Under the pieces are notes generated by a model that saw only the letters and a list, made by a program, of their open reading frames with translations, was not told where the DNA came from and did not search any database. A DNA stretch of 64,000 nucleotides from a virus (lineage: Duplodnaviria; Heunggongvirae; Uroviricota; Caudoviricetes), in the IMG/VR virus record IMGVR_UViG_3300031418_000001. One strand, written 5' to 3'. Shown one piece after another: positions 25,552 to 33,902 of the stretch. The stretch's first letter is position 1; each line of letters begins with the position of its first letter. The translations under genes and the position numbers were made by a program.

Positions 25552-25581
25552 GTGAAACAAAAACAATTTATATCCTATACT
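25552..25581 (+). promoter_or_regulatory. TGAAAC/TATACT-class promoter
   Basis: GTGAAACAAAAAC...CCTATACT. Confidence 0.7.
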
Positions 25582-25815: not shown

Positions 25816-25845
25816 CTGAAACAAATCAAAAAGATGTGCTATACT
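25816..25845 (+). promoter_or_regulatory. TGAAAC/TATACT-class promoter
   Basis: CTGAAACAAATC...TGTGCTATACT. Confidence 0.7.
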
Positions 25846-25860
25846 AAAAGAGTAAGACAC

Positions 25861-25980
25861 GGAATCACGCAGCAAATTAAAAAACAAATCTTATCTGAAA
25901 AAAGAATCTTGCAGTTCAAGTCTGCACTACGCAAAGTCTTACATTAGCGTAGCCACGGTGGAGATATGTTTTGATTCCAG
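25861..25980 (+). ncRNA. CAGCAA-family RNA 1 (carries a permuted tRNA-like module)
   Basis: GGAATCA/TGATTCC stem, CAGCAA, T arm TGCAG-TTCAAGT-CTGCA, then CTACGC/GCGTAG stem. Confidence 0.7.
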
Positions 25981-25987
25981 TTAATAC

Positions 25988-26060
25988 GTTCCCATCGTCT
26001 AACGGCTTAGGACGGCTCCCTTTCACGGAGCAAATCGGAGTTCGATTCTCCGTGGGAACG
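25988..26060 (+). tRNA. tRNA-Glu(UUC)
   Basis: GCTCC-CT TTC AC-GGAGC cloverleaf. Confidence 0.93.
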
Positions 26061-26100
26061 CAACATAGTTCCTCCTTTTCTATGTGTGTTGTGGTTGTTA

Positions 26101-26153
26101 TGGATTCTGACAGCAATTTAAACTCTTATGCTAAAGAAAAAAACGGAATCCAG
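26101..26153 (+). ncRNA. CAGCAA-family RNA 2
   Basis: TGGATTCTG/CGGAATCCA stem, CAGCAA, small internal hairpin. Confidence 0.7.
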
Positions 26154-26157
26154 TTTT

Positions 26158-26233
26158 GCACAGATGGCTGAAAGGTTGAGGCAACGGATTGCAAATCCGT
26201 ACTATGCAGGTTCGAATCCTGTTCTGTGCTCCA
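26158..26233 (+). tRNA. tRNA-Cys(GCA)
   Basis: ACGGA-TT GCA AA-TCCGT, U73, CCA. Confidence 0.93.
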
Positions 26234-26277
26234 ACATTGTTAAGTACTTTCATAGTAGAGTACTTAATAATGAATTT

Positions 26278-26334
26278 AGGAATCTAACAGCAACTTTAAA
26301 ATCTTATGCTTAAAGAAAAAAGAATAGATTCCTG
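26278..26334 (+). ncRNA. CAGCAA-family RNA 3
   Basis: AGGAATCTA/TAGATTCCT stem, CAGCAA, TCTT-ATGCTTA-AAGA hairpin. Confidence 0.7.
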
Positions 26335-26348
26335 TTAAAAAAGAATTA

Positions 26349-26403
26349 TGGATACTTACAGCAACCTAAAAACTTTTATTGGAAAAAGAAAAACGGTATC
26401 CAG
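26349..26403 (+). ncRNA. CAGCAA-family RNA 4
   Basis: TGGATACT/GGTATCCA stem, CAGCAA, TTTT-ATTGGAA-AAAG hairpin. Confidence 0.7.
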
Positions 26404-26411
26404 TTAAATTT

Positions 26412-26495
26412 GTGGGGCTGGCAGAGCGGTCGATTGCGGGGGACTGTAAATCCCTTCCGAAAGGCACGGTGGTTCGAATCCATCGCCCCACACCA
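26412..26495 (+). tRNA. tRNA-Tyr(GUA)
   Basis: GGGGA-CT GTA AA-TCCCT, variable arm, CCA. Confidence 0.93.
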
Positions 26496-26519
26496 AATTA
26501 GTAAGAGATATAATGGATT

Positions 26520-27041
26520 ATGTCAAAAGTTAGTAAAATTAATAGTATATCAACAACTGAATTTAAAACAATTGTTGAATCTTGTTTCTCTATAAGAGAA
26601 ATTGTCGAGAAAATGGGATTTTCAAGACAGAGTGGAAGTATGGCAATTAAAGTTAAAGAGAGAATTGCCAAAGAACAAATAGACACTTCACATTTTTTAG
26701 GTAGATTGTCTGTAAAAGGAAAACATATCCGTATTGAAATGGAAGATATATTAGTAAAGGACTCAACTTATACTAATATATACATGCTTAAAAAAAGACT
26801 CGTAAATGATAAACTTCTTAAGTATGAGTGTCAACTGTGTAAAAATGATGGTACATGGAATGGTCAAAAATTAACTTTACAACTCGATCATATAAATGGA
26901 GATCATAAAGATCATAGATTGGTCAATCTAAGGTTTTTATGCCCAAACTGTCATTCACAAACTGAAACTTTCTCAGGTAGAAATGTTAAAAAATACCCTG
27001 AAGTTATCACACTGGTAGGTAGGCCACCCATTATCCAGTGA
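26520..27041 (+). CDS. free-standing HNH endonuclease
   Basis: CQLC...LQLDHINGDHKDHRLVNLRFLCPNCHSQT. Confidence 0.92.
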   Translation: MSKVSKINSISTTEFKTIVESCFSIREIVEKMGFSRQSGSMAIKVKERIAKEQIDTSHFLGRLSVKGKHIRIEMEDILVKDSTYTNIYMLKKRLVNDKLLKYECQLCKNDGTWNGQKLTLQLDHINGDHKDHRLVNLRFLCPNCHSQTETFSGRNVKKYPEVITLVGRPPIIQ

Positions 27042-27160
27042 TGCGGAACGATTAATTAGTATAACGATAACTATAGAGGTATAGTGCACACCGGTTCAGG
27101 TACTATATTGATATAGAGACAATAGTACTATGAAGGTGGTTCGAATCCACACTTCGGGGC
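26996..27160 (+). ncRNA. ~165-nt tRNA-like RNA A (paralogue of 29905..30073)
   Basis: CCCTGAAGT/ACTTCGGGG closing stem, GTATAGTGC/GTACTATAT hairpin, CTATGA, GTGG-TTCGAAT-CCAC. Confidence 0.6.
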
Positions 27161-27259
27161 GAAAGGTTTTTTGCTTTTCAATATATATCTTATCCTTAAT
27201 CAATAGTATTCACATCCGGGTATGAAAATATCGAGTACTATTTCTTAAGATAATATTAT

Positions 27260-27342
27260 GGGGATGTGGTGGAATGGCAGACACGGCAGTTTTAGGCACT
27301 GTTTCCTTTGGAGTGAGAGTTCGAGTCTCTCCATCCCCACCA
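27260..27342 (+). tRNA. tRNA-Leu(UAG)
   Basis: GCAGT-TT TAG GC-ACTGT, variable arm, CCA. Confidence 0.92.
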
Positions 27343-27350
27343 ATTAATAC

Positions 27351-27421
27351 AGGGGCTTAGCCAAGCGGTTAGGCGGCTGTCTCCAAAACAGTTGAGGCGT
27401 GTTCGACTCATGCAGCCCCTG
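27351..27421 (+). tRNA. tRNA-Trp(CCA)
   Basis: GCTGT-CT CCA AA-ACAGT. Confidence 0.92.
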
Positions 27422-27440
27422 CAAATATAAGTACAATATT

Positions 27441-27803
27441 ATGAATGAACTTGAAACTATTATATTTGAAGTACATGATCATATAATCAACAATAAGCAT
27501 CTTGATGAAGATATTTTATTTAGATTATATAAAAATAATATAATAATTAAGTACTTTACCTTTACTCTTTGTCTTAAAAAACAACATTTTATATTTCAAC
27601 TTGACCCTACTGGTCTGGTTCGTTATTTCGAACATTATGTAATCGAGAAAGATTTACATTTTGAATTGAACATAATGGGGTTAGGTCTTTGTAACTTAGA
27701 ATGTGTACAGAAGATGATCGAATTACGAGAATGGCATGGGTTAACTACTAATATTGAGGCTAATTTTTTGATTGATTACCATGAAATTTCATCAACTAAT
27801 TAA
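27441..27803 (+). CDS. probable FN-motif family protein (divergent)
   Basis: EKDLHFELNIMG; start set at ATG 27441. Confidence 0.6.
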   Translation: MNELETIIFEVHDHIINNKHLDEDILFRLYKNNIIIKYFTFTLCLKKQHFIFQLDPTGLVRYFEHYVIEKDLHFELNIMGLGLCNLECVQKMIELREWHGLTTNIEANFLIDYHEISSTN

Positions 27804-28035
27804 GTACATTGAACAGGATAGAGATTTATATCAGTACGTAAGAGAACATGTACAAAATAAACCGAGAGTGTACGGTACTGAAATGTACAATACTTTGTGT
27901 TCTATACTTGAACACTTTGTGAATGATGAACTAAGGTTCGATTACATATCTGATGTACTTGATGCTTTAACTGGTCAGTGTCATGTGAATTGTATTATTG
28001 GTACTGGTGATTATCACCTCGATAAAGGTAATTAA
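27781..28035 (+). CDS. hypothetical protein
   Basis: ORF in co-oriented run. Confidence 0.65.
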   Translation: MKFHQLIKYIEQDRDLYQYVREHVQNKPRVYGTEMYNTLCSILEHFVNDELRFDYISDVLDALTGQCHVNCIIGTGDYHLDKGN

Positions 28036-28036
28036 A

Positions 28037-28858
28037 ATGATTACTTGGTTAATCCAAGATACTGCGAGAATGTATTCAGCAGTTGAAAATGAAATTACAC
28101 CACTCAATAAGTTGGGTTTTCAATTCAGAACCTTTGGTGTAATTCCATTTACAAATACTATTACTGGTCTTGATGATTTAGATCCTAACGGAAAATATAT
28201 CGTTCGTGGTGGAACCAAGATTGTAGACTTGTTAAGTACTGGCGTATCTGATAATCTTTCTCCTGAGCTTATGGAAGCACTTGCTAAAGGTGTATCATAT
28301 AACAGGATGAACTTTGACCAAGCTTATTATTCTGAATTGGATTTACCATTACTGAATGCTAAACCAGAAATTCTGGATTTAAACGATGATAAGAATCTTC
28401 ATGCATCATTCAGTACTGATAAGTTTGTTAAACCAAGTTCAGATCTTAAAGCCTTTACTGGTGGAGTAATGGAAGCTGGTGAAGTACTTAAGTACTTCAT
28501 TGAAAGACATTATCACCGTTCCGGTTATGCAGAAGAAACTGCACTGGTTCATGACGTTGAAGAAATTAATTCAGAGTACCGATTCATTTGCTTAAATGGT
28601 AAAGTGCTACAGGGTTCACAGTATCGTGGTAAACATGATCTTAAACTGGATGCTAATATTCCTTCTGAAATGATGAATGCAGCAGTTCAGTACGCTACGT
28701 TATACAAGCCAAGTGATTTATACACGATGGACTTAGCTGATACTCCTAACGGTATTAAAATTGTAGAGTACAATTGCTGGAATGGTTCAGGTTTGTATGC
28801 AATGAATGTAGAAGAACTTTTCACTAAGGTTCAGGAATATTATGAAAGTAAAAGCTAA
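28037..28858 (+). CDS. ATP-grasp domain protein (DUF4343/R2K-like)
   Basis: FVKPSSDLKAFTG, EYRFICLNG, YTMDLA..IVEYNCWNGSGLY. Confidence 0.8.
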   Translation: MITWLIQDTARMYSAVENEITPLNKLGFQFRTFGVIPFTNTITGLDDLDPNGKYIVRGGTKIVDLLSTGVSDNLSPELMEALAKGVSYNRMNFDQAYYSELDLPLLNAKPEILDLNDDKNLHASFSTDKFVKPSSDLKAFTGGVMEAGEVLKYFIERHYHRSGYAEETALVHDVEEINSEYRFICLNGKVLQGSQYRGKHDLKLDANIPSEMMNAAVQYATLYKPSDLYTMDLADTPNGIKIVEYNCWNGSGLYAMNVEELFTKVQEYYESKS

Positions 28859-29048
28859 AAGTAATTTCTATAATGTATTTGGTGCTGACAGCTTTATTCA
28901 ACACTGGCCTGAAATTTTAACTACTGGTATTGAAATTAAGAAAGATTCTTCTTTTTATTATGTAATAGTGGATGGGAAGATTGCTCATGATTCAGCATTC
29001 TTTTCTGAAGAAGAATTCGAACAATGTCTTGAAATTATAAGTCAATAA
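28842..29048 (+). CDS. hypothetical protein
   Basis: ORF in co-oriented run. Confidence 0.6.
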   Translation: MKVKAKSNFYNVFGADSFIQHWPEILTTGIEIKKDSSFYYVIVDGKIAHDSAFFSEEEFEQCLEIISQ

Positions 29049-29245
29049 TTAATCTTGGTACTTTAATTTTTCCCCCACAAAAAGACGTACTGGAAGTGAC
29101 TCTTACAGATACCTCATGTTCTTGCAAGTGGGTATGTTGTTGCAAGCGGGTTTGATGCTTTGACGAAAAGAATGCATTCATTGACTGGCAGTGGTAAACC
29201 AGAGGGTACGGCCTTTACCCTAACGTAGTCGGATAGGCATACTAC

Positions 29246-29318
29246 TGTCATGTAGCACAATCGGTGGTGCGTTCGCCTGTTAAGCGAGTGGTTGCAGGTT
29301 CGAGTCCTGTCATGACAG
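29246..29318 (+). tRNA. tRNA-Asn(GUU)
   Basis: TTCGC-CT GTT AA-GCGAG. Confidence 0.92.
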
Positions 29319-29488
29319 CAAAAATAAGTACTTAGATCCGTATTAAGTACTAAAGAAATACTTTTGTATCAAGCTGTTATGAGTCGTGTAGCTTGTAAAA
29401 TTATATAAGACGATCCGCGATGCACCTTGTATGGGTCAATCCGTAATGGTTAAATACATACAGTACTGAGAGCGGCAGTACACAATAA

Positions 29489-29571
29489 GCGGCATTAGCT
29501 CAGTTGGTAGAGCACCTGATTTCCAATCAGGAGGCGTATAGTTCACACGGGTTCGAATCCTGTATGCCGCT
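29489..29571 (+). tRNA. tRNA-Gly(UCC) with a 15-nt variable region
   Basis: CCTGA-TT TCC AA-TCAGG, U73. Confidence 0.88.
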
Positions 29572-29580
29572 CAAATACTA

Positions 29581-29674
29581 TATCGGTGCAGGTTTGCATT
29601 AGGGTTCGACTCCCACTAATCCAGCGGGCTGGACACTCGGCAGAGTGTATAAGGTTCGACTCCTTAGCCGATAC
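29581..29674 (+). ncRNA. tRNA-like RNA with two T-loops
   Basis: TATCGGT/GCCGATA closing stem; two GGTTCGACTCC hairpins. Confidence 0.55.
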
Positions 29675-29701
29675 AAATTAACTTTACATAGAGAATATAA
29701 A

Positions 29702-29896
29702 ATGGTAAATTCTAAATCAACTGATAAATTAAATATCATTTGTAGTACTGCAAAAGAGATCCTTACCAGTAATCCAGAAATGCATGATAAGCTGAAATCA
29801 GTTTCCATTGTGTGGAAAGAAATTGATGGGATGGCAGTACCTGATGTTAAAATTGAATTCTATGAAAAAGGTTTAAATTTAAACAAGAGCGTTTAA
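29702..29896 (+). CDS. hypothetical protein
   Basis: Start set at ATG 29702. Confidence 0.6.
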   Translation: MVNSKSTDKLNIICSTAKEILTSNPEMHDKLKSVSIVWKEIDGMAVPDVKIEFYEKGLNLNKSV

Positions 29897-29904
29897 ATAA
29901 AAGT

Positions 29905-30073
29905 TTTGAGTACTTGTGTTCGCTTAGTCGCAGAGAATTACACTGATTCACGGTAATAGCAGTCGGCACGGCAACCATAAGCCCTGGCAATATAGTACTT
30001 AATAGTGTTGTACTATATCAAGAGCAGTCTATGATGTGGGTTCGAATCCCAACCAGTGACACAAGTGCCCAAA
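29905..30073 (+). ncRNA. ~165-nt tRNA-like RNA B (paralogue of 26996..27160)
   Basis: Long closing stem, ATATAGTAC/GTACTATAT hairpin, CTATGA, TGGG-TTCGAAT-CCCA. Confidence 0.6.
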
Positions 30074-30156
30074 TATTAGTACTCTTAGGTGAAGACGCAG
30101 TAGGAAGTTAAAGCCCGTCATAATCTGATAGAAGTAATCTAAGAGTACTAATATTT
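30071..30156. repeat. 18-bp perfect inverted repeat around ~50 nt
   Basis: AAATATTAGTACTCTTAG ... CTAAGAGTACTAATATTT. Confidence 0.8.
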
Positions 30157-30166
30157 AAAAACTTAT

Positions 30167-30240
30167 GGGGTAGTAAGCTAATGGTAAACTGGCCGCTTGT
30201 TTAGCGGTATTTCCCTGTTCGATTCAGGGCTATCCCGCCA
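30167..30240 (+). tRNA. atypical tRNA with GUU anticodon (second Asn, U37)
   Basis: GCCGC-TT GTT TA-GCGGT, G73, CCA. Confidence 0.8.
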
Positions 30241-30256
30241 ATATTAAAGGTTCAAT

Positions 30257-30475
30257 ATGAGTACTAAAGTTACATTACATGTATCTAATGAAGATATGGA
30301 TTATGCACATTCAGTTTGGGATGCAGCAGAAGTCGCACTTCAGGCAGTAAATGAAGTATTGAAAGAAAAAGGTATTGATATTGAATTCAATGTGGAAAAT
30401 CATGGTTGTATTCAAGATGTTCCTGCTGAATTCTATGGCGAAAATGGTGAATGGATAGAGGTAAAAGAACTATGA
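30257..30475 (+). CDS. hypothetical protein
   Basis: ORF between tRNAs. Confidence 0.65.
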   Translation: MSTKVTLHVSNEDMDYAHSVWDAAEVALQAVNEVLKEKGIDIEFNVENHGCIQDVPAEFYGENGEWIEVKEL

Positions 30476-30631
30476 ATAAACCAGATTTTAGTATTCATGA
30501 TATGCTTGGTGAGATTAAACCATTTTCAAGAGAAGACCTGGAAATCTTACGTACTCATGAAGAAATGCATCGTCTGATGCAATTGGCAAAACGTTTCCCT
30601 GTGGAAATGAAGAAAAAGAATTAAGTACTAT

Positions 30632-30704
30632 GGGATAATAGCTCAGTTGGTAGAGCATCTGATTGAAGATCAGAGTGTCGGGGGTTCGACTCCCTCTTAT
30701 CCCA
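30632..30704 (+). tRNA. tRNA-Phe(GAA)
   Basis: TCTGA-TT GAA GA-TCAGA. Confidence 0.92.
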
Positions 30705-30892
30705 CAAACAGAACGAATGTATCCAGCACTGATAAAACTTATAGTGTGGTGTAGTGAACCCGTGTATGCAGTGTAGCTTTAATATAATTAAGCAGTTACG
30801 TTTCCATTGCTTAGAGATCACACCTCTAAGTACTCACTATGGATAAAAAAAGCAGTACTAATATCTTTGGATAGGGTGTTAGTACTAACTTT

Positions 30893-30965
30893 GGGTTGTT
30901 AGCTCAGTTGGTAGAGCAAGATACTTTTAATATCGAGGTCACAGGTTCAAGCCCTGTACAGCCCA
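30893..30965 (+). tRNA. tRNA-Lys(UUU)
   Basis: GATA-CT TTT AA-TATC. Confidence 0.92.
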
Positions 30966-30993
30966 CAAACTATAATAAATTGAGTACCAAATA

Positions 30994-31482
30994 ATGAATT
31001 CATCAGAAATTAAACAATTCAAAGTTGCTTTGAAAATGTTTTATGATAATCCTGAACGATTGAATAAACTTTATACTTTAAACCAGTTGAAGTTGTGTAA
31101 ATCTGGCACATTTGTTCTTTCACATATTTTATCAGATTCAGTTGATAAAATTGATAAAGAGATAATGAGCGATAGTGTCATTTTGGCTTTAGAAATCCAC
31201 GAACATGAAATGTATTTAAGAACAGTTATTACTGGTGATTTCTATAATGAATTACGTCAGAGATACCTTAGAGTACTGAATGTCAGAGCCATGAATAATG
31301 AAAATAATCCAACATCATCAAGTCATTTAGTATGGATGTTATTACAATTAGGTTCTGGTGAAATGTCTGAAACCAAGAAACATCGTTGGTTAGGATATAT
31401 TCAGGGTTGTATGGTAATGAAGAATTTTATTACTGTACAAGAAGAAAGAGATTTGACACGTGGTGTTTTCAACGGAAAATAA
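30994..31482 (+). CDS. hypothetical phage protein
   Basis: C-terminal HLVWML..KKHRWLGYIQG motif. Confidence 0.7.
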   Translation: MNSSEIKQFKVALKMFYDNPERLNKLYTLNQLKLCKSGTFVLSHILSDSVDKIDKEIMSDSVILALEIHEHEMYLRTVITGDFYNELRQRYLRVLNVRAMNNENNPTSSSHLVWMLLQLGSGEMSETKKHRWLGYIQGCMVMKNFITVQEERDLTRGVFNGK

Positions 31483-31483
31483 A

Positions 31484-31891
31484 ATGAATACTTTAATTGA
31501 TAGTTGGATGAAGAATGTGAAAACTTATCCACCTGCTGAGATTTTCTTTGAGAAGTACGGTAAAGACGCAAAAGCTGAAGAACGTATTAAAACAGTGTGT
31601 GAAGAAGTATATCGCTTCTGCTTCCCTGAAAGTACAAAGAATCCATTAGGTGATCTTGGTGCGTCCTATCGTGAATTAGAAGTAGCGTATAAAATTGGTT
31701 TTGAAGGTATGAAACCGGAGTATATTACAAAGGTTAAAGATGCTTTCTTGGAAGATGCTAAGTATGCAGTTAAAGCACTTGACGAATTATTCAAGAAAGA
31801 CCAGATTCTTCAACAATATTATTCTTCCTGGAAAATTAAGTACCAAGATATTAGTACTGAAGTTTATAATATGACTAAAAATTATATTTAA
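31484..31891 (+). CDS. hypothetical protein
   Basis: Start set at ATG 31484. Confidence 0.7.
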   Translation: MNTLIDSWMKNVKTYPPAEIFFEKYGKDAKAEERIKTVCEEVYRFCFPESTKNPLGDLGASYRELEVAYKIGFEGMKPEYITKVKDAFLEDAKYAVKALDELFKKDQILQQYYSSWKIKYQDISTEVYNMTKNYI

Positions 31892-31896
31892 AAAAT

Positions 31897-31926
31897 GTGA
31901 AACAAATACAAATTATGTCCTATACT
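31897..31926 (+). promoter_or_regulatory. TGAAAC/TATACT-class promoter
   Basis: GTGAAACAAATAC...TGTCCTATACT. Confidence 0.7.
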
Positions 31927-31949
31927 TATAGTATAAGATAAAGAAATAC

Positions 31950-32024
31950 GGTTCCATCGTTTAGCGGCTATGATACTCCCCTGTCACGGGAGAGACGCGG
32001 GTTCGATTCCCGCTGGAACCGCCA
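31950..32024 (+). tRNA. tRNA-Asp(GUC)
   Basis: CTCCC-CT GTC AC-GGGAG, CCA. Confidence 0.95.
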
Positions 32025-32028
32025 ATTT

Positions 32029-32120
32029 GGTGAGGTGGCAGAGCTTGGCTTATTGCACTGGTCTTGAAAACCAGCGGAGGTTAACCCCTTCCGAGAGTTC
32101 GAATCTCTCCCTCACCGCCA
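32029..32120 (+). tRNA. tRNA-Ser(UGA)
   Basis: CTGGT-CT TGA AA-ACCAG, long variable arm, CCA. Confidence 0.95.
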
Positions 32121-32125
32121 TATTA

Positions 32126-32191
32126 TGGATTCCCGCAGCAAACCATTATGAAATAGACTTTTAATCTAAACCTTCAAAAAATGGAATCCAG
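32126..32191 (+). ncRNA. CAGCAA-family RNA 5 (Lys-UUU anticodon-loop mimic)
   Basis: TGGATTCC/GGAATCCA, CAGCAA, TAGA-CTTTTAA-TCTA. Confidence 0.75.
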
Positions 32192-32222
32192 CTAAATTAC
32201 GTGAGTTATCACAACTGAATTA

Positions 32223-32289
32223 AAGAATCCCGCAGCAAACCCCAAATGAAAAAGACTTTTAATCTTATACTTCAATAAATGGATTCTTG
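32223..32289 (+). ncRNA. CAGCAA-family RNA 6 (Lys-UUU anticodon-loop mimic)
   Basis: AAGAATCC/GGATTCTT, CAGCAA, AAGA-CTTTTAA-TCTT. Confidence 0.75.
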
Positions 32290-32589
32290 TTAATTTTAAG
32301 GTACTAAAAAATGGACGATTCTTACTGGTTACTGCTGTTAATTATTGTAGTAATTATTCTGTTATAAGGTATTAATATGAGTATCTTATTAGCTATTTCT
32401 ATATTAATCCTTGCTTGTATTGCAATAGGATTCTATATTGATTGATGAAAATGTCCGAGGATTTATAGAATGATTAGTGTATTAGTAATTTTTGGTAGTA
32501 TTGTAGTAATGACATTCAGTGCAGGTATTGCAGCAGTTGTTGGGTACTGGATGGTGAAGAAACTTGCCGACTTACTTGGTAAGTAATAT

Positions 32590-32661
32590 TGGGAATTATT
32601 TCAGTGGTAGAAAGCACAACTGATAATTGTGAGGTCGCTGGTTCGAATCCAGCATTCCCAA
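32590..32661 (+). tRNA. tRNA-Ile(GAU)
   Basis: CACAA-CT GAT AA-TTGTG. Confidence 0.92.
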
Positions 32662-32694
32662 CTAATTTTAACAATAACTAAGAATCCAAACAAT

Positions 32695-33360
32695 ATGTCA
32701 AAAGATAAAGAAGTTAAGTACTCAACTGTGAAATATAACTCTTTAACCATTTTTAATAACCCGAGCTTTGCTACACATACAATTGCTGGTGCTATTAATG
32801 ATACATCCTTTAAAGACTTTCGTGATTTTTTGAATAAAGTATTCGAACATAATCAGAAAATTGATGAAGATGATCGTGAGTTCAAAGAGAAAGAAGCGTT
32901 TAATAAGATCCATGATCCAGAAGCTAAACCAACTTTCCGTAGTACTAAAACCAAAATCGAACGTATCAACCTTATCGTTGATAGTCGTGGTGGTTCATGT
33001 TCTTCAATGACTAACATTGTTGCTCTCATGAATGCATCACCTATTCCGATTGATACTTACTGTTTCGGTGCTGCAATGAGTGCAGGCTTCATGATCTTTA
33101 TCCACGGTAAACGTCGCTATATCGACGGTACAGTAGACCTTATGACGCATAGTTTAAGTACTATGGTATGGGACGATGCACCGAGCATTAAGCGTTATAC
33201 TGACCATATTGTTCGTTTGAATGATATCTATCAGCAGATGATCGCAGATAAAACTGGTCTGACCCTGGAATGGATTAAACAAAACGAAGAACGAGATATT
33301 CACTTTATTGCTGAAGAAGCACTTAAGTCTAAAATCGCTGATGTTTTGGTAGTTAATTAA
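32695..33360 (+). CDS. ClpP-like serine protease
   Basis: INLIVDSRGG, GAAMSAG (Ser), LMTHS (His), RDIHFIAEEAL..IAD; start ATG 32695 after the tRNA. Confidence 0.88.
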   Translation: MSKDKEVKYSTVKYNSLTIFNNPSFATHTIAGAINDTSFKDFRDFLNKVFEHNQKIDEDDREFKEKEAFNKIHDPEAKPTFRSTKTKIERINLIVDSRGGSCSSMTNIVALMNASPIPIDTYCFGAAMSAGFMIFIHGKRRYIDGTVDLMTHSLSTMVWDDAPSIKRYTDHIVRLNDIYQQMIADKTGLTLEWIKQNEERDIHFIAEEALKSKIADVLVVN

Positions 33361-33370
33361 TAAAAGAATT

Positions 33371-33500
33371 TGGAATTAAACAGCAAAAACTTTATAATGG
33401 GAACAATTGGTCGAAGGTTCGAATCCTTCTCTCCCGACCATTTCTGACGGGAGATAGCTCAGTGGTAGAGCACTTGTATATAAAACAAAATTAATTCCAG
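33371..33500 (+). ncRNA. CAGCAA-family RNA 7 with a circularly permuted tRNA module (YrlA-like architecture)
   Basis: TGGAATTAA/TTAATTCCA, CAGCAA; T arm, then TCTCCCG-loop-CGGGAGA acceptor stem, then GCTC-AGTGGTA-GAGC D arm. Confidence 0.8.
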
Positions 33501-33518
33501 TTAAATTCAGGTACAAAA

Positions 33519-33902
33519 ATGAATACTATTGAAGCAATTAACATTGTTCATGATAATCTCACTAATGGTATGTTATATCCTTATTACTTCAGATATGATC
33601 AACCACCTGTAGTAGCATTTAAGTACTGCCATCCTACTGAACTTGATAAGTACGTTTATGTACTTCCTCCTATGTGTACTTCTCGTATCGTATGGACTTC
33701 ATTCAGTAAAGATGACGGCGTTATTATTGAACGCAAAAATAACAGACATGTCTGGTATAATAATGGTGATACAATCACTATTCCTAAGATTGATGCAAGC
33801 AATGATAAGTGGTTTAACTTTTCAGTACGTTTCAATCTTACTAAAGAACTGTACCAGAAGTACCTTGATATTTTGAAACATGCTGAGAAACTTACACCAT
33901 GA
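33519..33902 (+). CDS. FN-motif paralogue family protein
   Basis: SNDKWFNFSVRF. Confidence 0.75.
   Translation: MNTIEAINIVHDNLTNGMLYPYYFRYDQPPVVAFKYCHPTELDKYVYVLPPMCTSRIVWTSFSKDDGVIIERKNNRHVWYNNGDTITIPKIDASNDKWFNFSVRFNLTKELYQKYLDILKHAEKLTP

What the first reader, a model, noticed from the sequence alone, without database searches (positions are those of the whole stretch)
25861..33500. Seven-member CAGCAA RNA family: a constant stem scaffold displaying interchangeable tRNA-mimic modules
Seen: copies at 25861, 26101, 26278, 26349, 32126, 32223 and 33371 share a 7-9 bp terminal stem with compensatory changes (GGAATCA/TGATTCC, GGATTC/GAATCC, GGATAC/GTATCC, GGAATT/AATTCC), an invariant CAGCAA just inside the 5' strand, a G just 3' of the stem, and A-rich linkers. 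The cargo varies. Two carry a perfect Lys anticodon loop (AGA-CTTTTAA-TCT). Others carry 7-nt loops centred on GCT or TGG, with less certain register. Two carry a permuted tRNA (T arm, then an acceptor stem closed by a loop, then a D arm). Known: bacterial YrlA Y RNAs join a Ro60-binding stem to such a permuted tRNA domain, and tRNA-Lys(UUU) is the target of PrrC and PARIS nucleases. Inference: a protein-bound RNA scaffold library acting as decoys or inhibitors of anticodon nucleases, or as adaptors for a phage Ro/TROVE protein. No such protein is visible in this window.
Basis: partly seen in the sequence, partly recalled or inferred. Interest (0 to 1): 0.88.

Follow-up and report, generated by a model that had tools for sequence, protein, structure and literature searches.

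The report
Phage Y-like RNAs carrying tRNA parts
Seven small RNA genes hidden among a giant phage's tRNA genes share one conserved "handle" and carry tRNA look-alike parts; they are most likely partner RNAs of a Ro60-shaped ring protein, an RNA-protein pairing I found in no RNA catalogue or paper.

Summary
The seven copies are real. All have a covarying 7-8 bp terminal stem, CAGCAA starting exactly 9 nt from the 5' end, an A-rich 3' linker and a WG tail. The family is not private to this phage. Related jumbo phages (XaC1, XbC2, GAP32, CBB, BF, fHe-Yen9-04, 7t3, fENko-Kae01) carry 5-12 copies each in their tRNA regions.

The same handle occurs in three topologies: free-standing with a hairpin, wrapped round a permuted tRNA-like body, and inserted into complete tRNA-Lys genes.

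Among ten jumbo phages tested, the RNA family and a DUF2828/DUF7788 protein occur together (6) or are both absent (4). An AlphaFold model of that protein matches Ro60 over its full length. In six unrelated phages the handle lies within 2 kb of the DUF2828 gene, on the same strand.

The decoy idea is untested. The "GCT/TGG anticodon" reading of copies 2-4 is not supported.

Limits: this phage's own DUF2828 gene could not be checked, because no whole genome is held. RNA ends and protein binding are not shown.

Other agents of this scan reported the same pairing on other DNA. I re-tested it here.

The parts
25816..25845 (+). Promoter-like site (GTGAAA-type -35, TG-extended TATACT -10) 15 nt upstream of copy 1. 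It probably starts the unit copy 1 - tRNA-Glu - copy 2 - tRNA-Cys - copies 3 and 4 - tRNA-Tyr.
   Evidence: The same long motif recurs at 25552-25581 and 31897-31926. This is a consensus match only.
25861..25981 (+). Copy 1 (long). P1 is 25861-25867 / 25972-25978 and CAGCAA is 25870-25875. The cargo is a degenerate tRNA-like body: a T-arm-like hairpin at 25910-25926 and a closed acceptor-like hairpin at 25927-25952. tRNA-Glu starts 8 nt after the tail.
   Evidence: (z = -2.97).
26102..26154 (+). Copy 2 (minimal handle). P1 is 26102-26108 / 26145-26151 and CAGCAA is 26111-26116, with a small P2 hairpin. tRNA-Cys starts 3 nt after the tail.
   Evidence: (68.7 bits). An RNA-library contig covers 26033-26166.
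26279..26335 (+). Copy 3 (minimal handle). P1 is 26279-26285 / 26326-26332 and CAGCAA is 26288-26293. P2 is TCTT/AAGA.
   Evidence: (69.6 bits). Its orthologue in XaC1 is L001 19461-19512.
26350..26404 (+). Copy 4 (minimal handle). P1 is 26350-26356 / 26395-26401 and CAGCAA is 26359-26364. P2 is CTTTT/AAAAG. tRNA-Tyr starts 7 nt after the tail.
   Evidence: (68.5 bits).
31897..31926 (+). Promoter-like site of the same type, ahead of tRNA-Asp - tRNA-Ser(TGA) - copy 5 - copy 6.
   Evidence: This is a consensus match only.
32127..32192 (+). Copy 5. P1 is 32127-32133 / 32183-32189 and CAGCAA is 32136-32141. The cargo is an anticodon-arm look-alike at 32155-32167 with the loop CTTTTAA (Lys UUU type). 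It begins 6 nt after tRNA-Ser.
   Evidence: (69.8 bits).
32224..32290 (+). Copy 6. P1 is 32224-32230 / 32281-32287 and starts with A. CAGCAA is 32233-32238. The cargo is an anticodon-arm look-alike at 32253-32265 with the loop CTTTTAA.
   Evidence: (66.4 bits).
33372..33501 (+). Copy 7 (long). P1 is 33372-33379 / 33491-33498 and CAGCAA is 33381-33386. The cargo is a permuted tRNA-Pro-like body. In order it holds: nt 34-38 plus the 3' anticodon strand from 33398, the T arm at 33413-33429, the acceptor 3' strand plus ACCA at 33430-33440, a 7-nt spacer, the acceptor 5' strand from 33448, the D arm, and the 5' anticodon strand at 33473-33477.
   Evidence: YrlA scores 33 bits. ARAGORN calls the rotated sequence tRNA-Pro(TGG). 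The orthologue in XaC1, L001 19773-19891, has compensatory changes in the anticodon stem.

Best explanation
The seven loci are genes for small structured RNAs of an undescribed phage family.

The constant part is a 'handle'. It consists of a 7-8 bp terminal stem, ACAGCAA starting at nt 10, a short AU-rich linker, an A-rich 3' linker and a WGU tail. It is most likely the docking site for a Ro60-fold ring protein of the DUF2828/DUF7788 family, encoded elsewhere in the phage genome. This is inferred from co-occurrence and gene neighbourhood in other phages. Binding is not shown.

The variable part is tRNA-derived: an anticodon-arm look-alike (copies 5 and 6), a permuted tRNA-like body that cannot be charged as it stands (copies 1 and 7), or only a small hairpin (copies 2-4).

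The RNAs are transcribed with the tRNAs from phage promoters. They are probably released by the enzymes that mature the neighbouring tRNAs, because several copies end 3-8 nt before a tRNA 5' end (inferred).

By analogy with Ro60-Y RNA particles, the handle would hold the RNA on the ring. The tRNA-like cargo would then engage tRNA-binding host or phage proteins: tRNA-cutting defence nucleases, PNPase or repair enzymes. The result would be either to bait them or to bring the ring to them, as part of the phage's protection of its translation apparatus (speculative).
For: - The family is real and conserved. The model R1, built from copies 2-6, finds 5-13 copies per genome in eight related jumbo phages, all on the tRNA strand. 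The stem covaries strongly.
- The cargo hairpins covary while their loops stay fixed: AGA/TCT against CAAA/TTTG around CTTTTAA. The copy 7 anticodon stem also changes with compensation, CTTGT/ACAAT against AAAGT/ACTTT.
- The handle is one module in three topologies. One of these is an insertion into otherwise canonical tRNA-Lys genes, in phages that also keep a normal tRNA-Lys.
- Co-occurrence is perfect in the ten genomes tested. RNA family and DUF2828 are both present in XaC1, fHe-Yen9-04, CBB, GAP32, 7t3 and fENko-Kae01. Both are absent in RaK2, K64-1, Hallingskeid and phiR1-37.
- R1 and a stem-plus-motif scan find handles within 2 kb of the DUF2828 gene, on the same strand, in six unrelated phages. 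These are Listeria LP-064 (36.1 bits), Mycobacterium JoeDirt, Campylobacter NCTC12673, a Felixounavirus, Sinorhizobium phiM19 and Vibrio KVP40.
- The DUF2828 model (pLDDT 88, pTM 0.86) has Ro60/Rsr/phage Ro60 as its top 13 PDB matches over about 550 columns.
- The literature gives context. Phage Ro60 binds neighbouring Y-like RNAs and host PNPase (PMC12135203). A Felixounavirus Ro60-like gp130 counters the Ppl defence, and its authors guessed that nearby 'tRNA genes' are Y RNAs (bioRxiv 10.1101/2024.10.10.617714).
Against: - No DUF2828 gene lies in this window, and the phage's whole genome is not held. Its presence here is inferred from relatives.
- In the jumbo phages the gene lies about 200 kb from the RNAs, with no handle beside it. 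For this clade the link is co-occurrence only. The ten genomes amount to about seven independent lineages.
- No binding, RNA ends or abundance are shown. The only RNA-library evidence is one contig over copy 2, and DNA carry-over cannot be excluded.
- gp130 protected T7 when expressed alone, so the protein may act without these RNAs.
- The handle does not resemble the known Ro60-binding bulged helix or the GNCGAA motif of YrlA.
Confidence: 0.6

Rival explanations
1. The RNAs are protein-independent decoys. The anticodon-arm and tRNA-like cargo soak up or jam host tRNA-cutting defence nucleases (PrrC/RloC, PARIS AriB and the like). The handle only stabilises the RNA and keeps it off the ribosome.
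For: The cargo loops are exact Lys(UUU) loops in this window. They are exact Lys or Asn(GUU) loops in relatives (8 free Lys copies and 6 Asn copies), conserved while the stems covary. AriB cleaves tRNA-Lys(UUU), Thr(UGU) and Asn(GUU) (PMC12409363). Each relative keeps three Lys(UUU) look-alikes: a normal tRNA, a tRNA with the module inserted, and a free handle RNA. All five of these phages tested, including RaK2, encode a T4 Rnl1-type anticodon-loop ligase, so they do meet such nucleases.
Against: Three of the seven copies here, and many in relatives, carry no anticodon-like loop. Some orthologous loops drift (CTTTTAC, CCTAACC, CTTATCT). The idea does not explain the invariant CAGCAA or the strict link with DUF2828. 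RaK2 has the ligase but not the RNAs. No cleavage or protection data exist.
Confidence: 0.15
2. The elements are unusual tRNA precursors. The module is a new kind of intron or permuted-gene joint that is cut out. The ends are then sealed, for example by the phage Rnl1 ligase, to give working tRNAs: tRNA-Pro from copy 7, and tRNA-Lys in relatives.
For: Copy 7 has every tRNA-Pro feature, including C1-G72, A73 and an encoded CCA. It becomes a canonical tRNA-Pro(TGG) if 33479 is joined to 33398. Removing the roughly 50-nt insert between nt 28 and 29 of the relatives' tRNA-Lys restores a perfect anticodon stem. In the permuted copies the break falls at 33|34. From my own knowledge of the field, not checked here, that is the bond PrrC cuts and Rnl1 reseals. 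Rnl1 is present.
Against: The XaC1 orthologue of copy 7 would get G33 and has no CCA, and its acceptor is closed by 5 nt. Other permuted subfamilies give no canonical loop at any joint, and their acceptors are capped by 4-nt loops. Most copies have no tRNA body at all. Normal tRNA-Pro and tRNA-Lys genes are present as well. No splicing endonuclease or RtcB was found. No joined form was seen in the runs laid, though contigs could miss it.
Confidence: 0.07
3. The elements are structured spacers of the polycistronic tRNA transcripts. The terminal stem pairs the two ends of the spacer, insulates tRNA folding and positions processing cuts. There is no function in trans.
For: Minimal copies sit 2-8 nt upstream of tRNA 5' ends here (copies 1, 2 and 4) and in relatives. 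A conserved AU-rich TTAAWTT tract follows the tail. This could be an RNase E-type site, judged from my own knowledge of the enzyme's preference.
Against: Copy 7 and several relatives stand alone between protein genes. The same handle lies beside DUF2828 genes in phages where no tRNA is adjacent (JoeDirt, KVP40). RaK2-type phages process their tRNAs without it. Conserved tRNA-like cargo is not needed for a spacer.
Confidence: 0.08

Closest known systems
Bacterial and mycobacteriophage Y RNAs of the YrlA type with Ro60/Rsr (Rfam RF02553; Chen et al. 2014, PMC4201824)
   Same: Both are small RNAs with a terminal stem that carries the protein site just inside the 5' strand. Both also have a tRNA-like domain (T arm, D arm, acceptor closed by a loop) whose ends leave from the anticodon side. 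Both are tied to a Ro60-fold protein made of a ring plus a vWA domain. Copy 7 and its relatives score 31-45 bits on the YrlA model.
   Different: All scores are below the 69-bit threshold. The motif is CAGCAA rather than GNCGAA, and the bulged Ro helix is missing. The protein is DUF2828/DUF7788, not Pfam TROVE. Most members have no tRNA-like domain. There are 7-12 copies per genome, spread through the tRNA array and far from the protein gene in this clade.
Thermus phage phiLo Ro60 with Yrl1/Yrl2 (PMC12135203; PDB 9KOP, 9L5Y)
   Same: It is a phage-encoded Ro60-fold protein with phage-encoded partner RNAs. It forms a complex with host PNPase. Its structure is among the best matches to the DUF2828 model.
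   Different: That protein is a recognisable Ro60/TROVE homologue. Its two RNAs carry a CGAA bulge and lie directly upstream of the gene. No tRNA-part cargo library is involved.
Felixounavirus Bas63 gp130, a Ro60-like counter-defence protein against Ppl (bioRxiv 10.1101/2024.10.10.617714)
   Same: It is a Ro60-like protein directly upstream of a phage tRNA array. In the congener 'ekra' that protein is DUF2828, and four handle RNAs lie among the tRNAs. The authors guessed that some of the 'tRNA genes' are Y RNAs.
   Different: The RNAs were not identified or described there, and gp130 worked without them in T7. I did not check directly that Bas63 gp130 is DUF2828; I infer it from the congener.
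Class I RNAs of dictyostelid amoebae (Rfam RF01414; Kjellin et al. 2021, PMC7919456)
   Same: The design is the same: about 55-60 nt, a 6-7 bp covarying stem that joins the two ends, the motif (C)CUUACAGCAA right after the 5' strand, a variable middle, a C(U/A)GU end, and many copies. Copies 2-4 align full-length at 18-25 bits, and XaC1 copies reach 30 bits.
   Different: All scores are below the 41.5-bit threshold. BF, CBB and GAP32 copies do not score at E<5 apart from one doubtful 24.3-bit match in BF. The 5' G is not invariant. Class I genes have a eukaryotic DUSE promoter. Their known binder is an RRM protein. Whether the likeness is common descent or chance is open.
Permuted and split tRNA genes of Cyanidioschyzon merolae and Archaea (from my own knowledge of the field)
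   Same: The 3' half lies before the 5' half, and flanking sequences pair to bring the ends together near the anticodon loop.
   Different: Those are matured by a splicing endonuclease at a bulge-helix-bulge and then ligated. No such enzyme or motif is found here, and most members here cannot yield a tRNA.

Membership tests
YrlA / Y RNA-like (RF02553) | Score at or above Rfam's gathering threshold (69 bits) | tested here: not met
   Copy 7 scores 33 bits. Relatives score 31-45 bits. Copies 1-6 give no match.
YrlA / Y RNA-like (RF02553) | tRNA-like domain with T arm, D arm and an acceptor stem closed by a loop, with the RNA ends leaving from the anticodon side | tested here: met
   This is met for copy 7 and loosely for copy 1. 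It is not met for copies 2-6, which have no such domain.
YrlA / Y RNA-like (RF02553) | GNCGAA(N)G motif near the 5' end and a Ro-binding helix (PMC4201824) | tested here: not met
   The handle has (A)CAGCAA at nt 10-15. The YrlA alignment deletes the Ro-helix part.
YrlA / Y RNA-like (RF02553) | Encoded within 4 kb of a TROVE-domain Ro60 gene, on the same strand | tested here: not met
   There is no TROVE or DUF2828 gene in the window. No Pfam TROVE match was found in six relatives. In relatives the DUF2828 gene lies about 200 kb away.
Dictyostelid Class I RNA (RF01414) | Score at or above the gathering threshold (41.5 bits) | tested here: not met
   The best score in the window is 25.2 bits (copy 3) and the best overall is 30.4 bits (XaC1). 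In BF, CBB and GAP32 nothing scores at E<5 except one doubtful 24.3-bit match in BF that spans 159 nt.
Dictyostelid Class I RNA (RF01414) | Short stem joining the 5' and 3' ends, an 11-nt motif next to the 5' strand, a length of 42-65 nt and a CUGU end (PMC7919456) | tested here: inconclusive
   Stem, position and length fit for copies 2-6. The motif matches 10 of 11 positions in copy 4 and 7-9 of 11 in the others. The ends read CAGU or CUGU. The 5' G is not invariant.
Dictyostelid Class I RNA (RF01414) | DUSE promoter about 60 nt upstream; found in Dictyostelia only | tested here: not met
   This is a phage of bacteria with host-type or phage-type promoters.
CAGCAA-handle RNAs paired with DUF2828 (undescribed; defined here) | Covarying terminal stem with CAGCAA starting 9 nt from the 5' end, an A-rich 3' linker and a WG(U) tail | tested here: met
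   All seven copies meet it.
CAGCAA-handle RNAs paired with DUF2828 (undescribed; defined here) | A DUF2828/DUF7788 (Ro60-fold) gene in the same genome | not testable with these tools
The feature is met in 6 of 6 RNA-positive relatives tested and absent in 4 of 4 RNA-negative ones.
Functional (permuted) tRNA-Pro | Yields a cloverleaf with a 7-nt anticodon loop, U33 and a CCA end after joining | tested here: inconclusive
   Copy 7 does so on paper. Its XaC1 orthologue does not: it would have G33, has no CCA, and has a 5-nt cap. No joined RNA was seen.

The most novel reading that the evidence does not exclude
The stem-plus-ACAGCAA handle is the recognition element of DUF2828-type Ro-like rings wherever that protein occurs. 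The unexplained Class I RNAs of Dictyostelium would then be the eukaryotic members of the same RNA-protein class, that is, Y-like RNAs of a DUF2828 protein. Within phages, the interchangeable tRNA-derived cargo would make the particle a cargo-coded set of adaptors, each aimed at a different tRNA-specific enzyme.
Probability: 0.1. Interest if true: 0.9.

Novelty: new variant of a known kind. Interest (0 to 1): 0.72.

Why it matters
Ro60-Y RNA particles are known from animals, some bacteria and a few phages, but their RNA partners have been hard to find. This finding has several consequences.

- It points to a much larger, uncatalogued class of partner RNAs. tRNA finders miss them, and they sit in the tRNA arrays of many large phages.
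- It pairs them with a very abundant protein family of unknown function. DUF2828 has thousands of homologues and occurs in 701 phage records.
- It would give that family an RNA ligand.
- It would explain 'pseudo-tRNA' and 'tRNA with insert' annotations in jumbo phages.
- It offers a concrete, testable model for how phages protect or police tRNAs during infection, with natural cargo variants (Lys, Asn, Pro) to test against tRNA-cutting defences.
- It makes the long-open question of what Dictyostelium Class I RNAs bind directly testable.

Tried and rejected
- **Pfam TROVE:** no match in XaC1, XbC2, BF, fHe-Yen9-04, CBB or GAP32.
- **RtcB and tRNA-splicing endonuclease:** none found. The only endonuclease matches were two 13-bit chance hits.
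- **T4 Rnl1-type ligase:** present in all five phages tested, including RaK2, which lacks the RNAs. It therefore does not discriminate.
- **Pattern for copy-7 orthologues in IMG/VR:** 89 hits, about the chance number, and none confirmed by the model.
- **Relatives sought through the ClpP-like neighbour:** IMG/VR, the metagenomes and the species genomes gave only RaK2-type contigs or nothing.
- **No whole genome for the window**.
- **Reads laid on the stretch:** three strains, about 95-99% alike, keep the elements but show too little variation to test covariation. The one RNA run is held as contigs and shows neither ends nor levels. Its high depth at 33282-33520 comes from other organisms' tRNA. 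No joined form of copy 7 was seen.
- **Handle beside the DUF2828 gene of the four jumbo phages:** none found.
- **Sequence search of the PDB with the DUF2828 protein:** nothing. Only the fold search showed Ro60.
- **ESM Atlas:** returned only DUF2828 clusters of viruses and did not tell whether amoebae have the protein.
- **Pairing partner for CAGCAA:** I looked for a general UUGCUG partner and found none. Only one long subfamily has GUUGCU in a loop.
- **Known small ribozymes and type III antitoxin repeats:** considered and dropped. There is no Rfam match, and the copies are neither tandem nor identical.

Full report
**What is in the window.** The stretch lies in the tRNA region of a Rak2-like jumbo phage. 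The window holds 20 tRNA genes and one group I intron. The nearest sequenced relative is Xanthomonas phage XaC1, whose ClpP-like protein is 66% identical. Near-identical DNA occurs in phyllosphere and plant metagenomes.

A pattern for the 5' strand plus CAGCAA gives 9 hits, 7 of them the copies, against 1.9 expected. Every copy has four features:
- a 7-8 bp stem joining its two ends;
- CAGCAA starting exactly 9 nt after the first base;
- an A-rich stretch before the 3' strand;
- A/T then G after the stem.

Copies 1, 2 and 4 end 3-8 nt before a tRNA 5' end, and copy 5 starts 6 nt after tRNA-Ser. Two sites of a recurring phage promoter-like motif precede the two clusters.

**The family outside the window.** I built a covariance model (R1) from copies 2-6, using only the terminal stem as structure. 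It finds five copies in XaC1 at the syntenic place around the ClpP-like gene. It finds 8-13 copies each in XbC2, fHe-Yen9-04, BF, CBB and GAP32 and six each in 7t3 and fENko-Kae01. It finds none in RaK2, K64-1, Hallingskeid or phiR1-37.

A motif-plus-closure scan of the tRNA regions lists 68 open elements. Of these, 37 are short (median 60 nt) and 31 are long (median 122 nt). That list was selected on CAGCA[AC], so the motif's invariance within it holds by construction.

On the 48 model matches the stem is 98.8% paired, and 5 of 7 pairs change on both sides. G1-C against A1-U occurs 25:21. All controls fall far below. An exact 22-base pattern occurs in IMG/VR only on 354-378 kb phage contigs plus one 38-kb contig. 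In 185,579 species genomes it occurs once, on a 4-kb contig of a metagenome-assembled genome.

**Anatomy.** The handle is constant and the cargo is not. There are three kinds of cargo.
- *Minimal members.* Copies 2-4 and many relatives directly upstream of tRNA genes hold only a small hairpin. Its stem covaries (TCTT/AAGA, CTTTT/AAAAG, TCAT/ATGA, TTCT/AGAA) and its 6-9 nt loop varies freely.
- *Anticodon-arm members.* These carry exact 7-nt loops of tRNA-Lys(UUU) or tRNA-Asn(GUU), with covarying stems. Copies 5 and 6 are framed like the Asn type of relatives but carry the Lys loop.
- *Long members.* These wrap a permuted tRNA-like body. In copy 7 and its XaC1 orthologue the anticodon stem is formed across the handle and changes with compensation. 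Nt 34-38 read UGGGA, as in tRNA-Pro. Positions 32-33 are replaced by the linker, so the break lies at 33|34. Rotated, copy 7 is called tRNA-Pro(TGG) by ARAGORN.

A third topology turned up in relatives. Complete tRNA-Lys(UUU) genes carry a roughly 50-nt insert between nt 28 and 29. The insert is the same module with its stem capped by a loop: A-rich linker, hairpin, then CAGCAA and its linker. These phages also keep a normal tRNA-Lys(UUU).

**What the catalogues say.** Rfam has no family for these RNAs at its thresholds. Two families appear below threshold. YrlA matches the permuted members, at 33 bits here and up to 45 bits in relatives. The Dictyostelium Class I RNA model matches the short members full-length, at 18-25 bits here and 30 bits in XaC1. 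The Class I likeness is a true likeness of design (PMC7919456). It is strongest in this phage and XaC1. It is all but absent in BF, CBB and GAP32, where one doubtful 24.3-bit match in BF is the only hit. I therefore treat it as a lead, not as membership.

**The protein partner.** After my own searches for TROVE, RtcB and a splicing endonuclease had come back empty, notes from other agents of this scan named DUF2828 as a Ro60-like partner. I tested that in four ways.
1. *Co-occurrence.* DUF2828 is present in XaC1, fHe-Yen9-04, CBB, GAP32, 7t3 and fENko-Kae01, which all have the RNAs. It is absent in RaK2, K64-1, Hallingskeid and phiR1-37, which all lack them (with 19, 45, 109). There are no discordant cases. 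Counting genera rather than genomes, that is about 4 lineages against 3.
2. *Neighbourhood.* In these jumbo phages the gene is far from the RNAs and has no handle beside it. The protein has homologues in 701 phage records. In six unrelated ones, R1 and a stem-plus-motif scan find handles on the gene's strand within 2 kb:
   - three directly upstream in Listeria LP-064 (36.1 bits);
   - three directly downstream in Mycobacterium JoeDirt, one with a permuted tRNA-like body;
   - two upstream in Campylobacter NCTC12673;
   - four in the adjoining tRNA array of a Felixounavirus;
   - two in Sinorhizobium phiM19;
   - one overlapping the ribosome site and start codon of the gene in KVP40.
3. *Fold.* The protein is DUF2828 plus DUF7788, with weak vWA matches. 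An AlphaFold model from 36 homologues (pLDDT 88.4, pTM 0.86) has Ro60, Rsr and phage Ro60 as its 13 best PDB matches. These run over about 550 aligned columns at TM 0.46-0.59 and E around 1e-8 to 1e-5.
4. *This window.* It encodes no such protein. The rest of the genome could not be read.

**How it most likely works.** The following are shown:
- a conserved, covarying RNA family with a constant handle;
- tRNA-derived cargo;
- strict genomic association with a Ro60-fold protein.

The following are inferred:
- the handle docks on that protein;
- the RNAs are freed by tRNA processing;
- the particle acts on tRNA-binding enzymes.

The published parallels are these. Y RNAs gate Ro60 and tether it to PNPase (PMC4201824). 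Phage phiLo Ro60 binds two neighbouring Y-like RNAs and host PNPase (PMC12135203). The Felixounavirus Ro60-like gp130 counters the Ppl defence.

It remains open whether the Lys, Asn and Pro cargo baits tRNA-cutting nucleases or guides the ring to repair or decay enzymes. AriB cuts exactly tRNA-Lys(UUU), Asn(GUU) and Thr(UGU).

The tRNA-precursor reading fits copy 7 alone and fails for its orthologue and for most members. The spacer reading fits the minimal members' positions. It does not fit the stand-alone copies or the link with the protein.

**Novelty.** I found no paper or Rfam family describing these RNAs. Genome papers mention only 'pseudo-tRNA genes'. One preprint guessed that some phage 'tRNA genes' may be Y RNAs. 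The kind of system, a Ro60-fold protein with Y-like RNAs, is known. The RNA family, its handle, its three topologies and its pairing with DUF2828 are not. Other agents of this scan have reported the same pairing on many other genomes. The tests above are my own.

Noticed in passing
window 26520-27041: The HNH endonuclease ORF between tRNA-Tyr and the next tRNA-like gene is missing in three related strains: contigs join 26493 (or 26410) to 26991. It is therefore a recent mobile insertion.
   Followed up: partly
window 26997-27170, 29575-29680 and 29930-30065: These are tRNA-like genes that tRNA finders miss. Two have acceptor and T arms (T loops at 27139 and 30040) separated by inserts of about 100 nt rich in AGTACT hairpins. 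One has two T-arm-like hairpins inside a closing stem. None contains CAGCAA.
   Followed up: no
L140:1425-1546, L139:568-689, L141:6872-6994, L137:8295-8416: In CBB, BF, GAP32 and XbC2, complete tRNA-Lys(UUU) genes carry the capped CAGCAA module as a roughly 50-nt insert between nt 28 and 29 of the anticodon stem. A degenerate copy lies at L140:6662-6780. The cap loop is often AGTACT.
   Followed up: partly
L170:2439-2481 (Vibrio phage KVP40): A handle overlaps the ribosome binding site and start codon of the DUF2828 gene itself. This suggests that the protein could repress its own translation.
   Followed up: no
L174:938-1489 (Listeria phage LP-064): A ROOL-like RNA (87.4 bits, threshold 99.1) lies just upstream of three handle RNAs, the DUF2828 gene and an RtcB-like ligase gene.
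   Followed up: no
L160:9075-9148 and L161:9274-9346: XbC2 and GAP32 carry a tRNA with anticodon CTA, which would read amber. ARAGORN labels it 'Pyl'.
   Followed up: no
window 27998-28858: An R2K-clade ATP-grasp gene (Pfam R2K_3/R2K_2) sits inside the tRNA region, between the two clusters of handle RNAs.
   Followed up: no
L140:5757-5877, L141:5965-6085, L138:6924-7043, L139:4862-4982, L137:7485-7603: One long subfamily keeps GTTGCT in the loop that caps its acceptor-like stem. This is complementary to AGCAAC of the handle motif, so a pseudoknot is possible in that subfamily only.
   Followed up: no
window 25552-25581, 25816-25845, 31897-31926: A recurring long promoter-like motif (GTGAAACAAA, spacer, CCTATACT) heads a small ORF and both handle-RNA/tRNA units.
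   Followed up: partly
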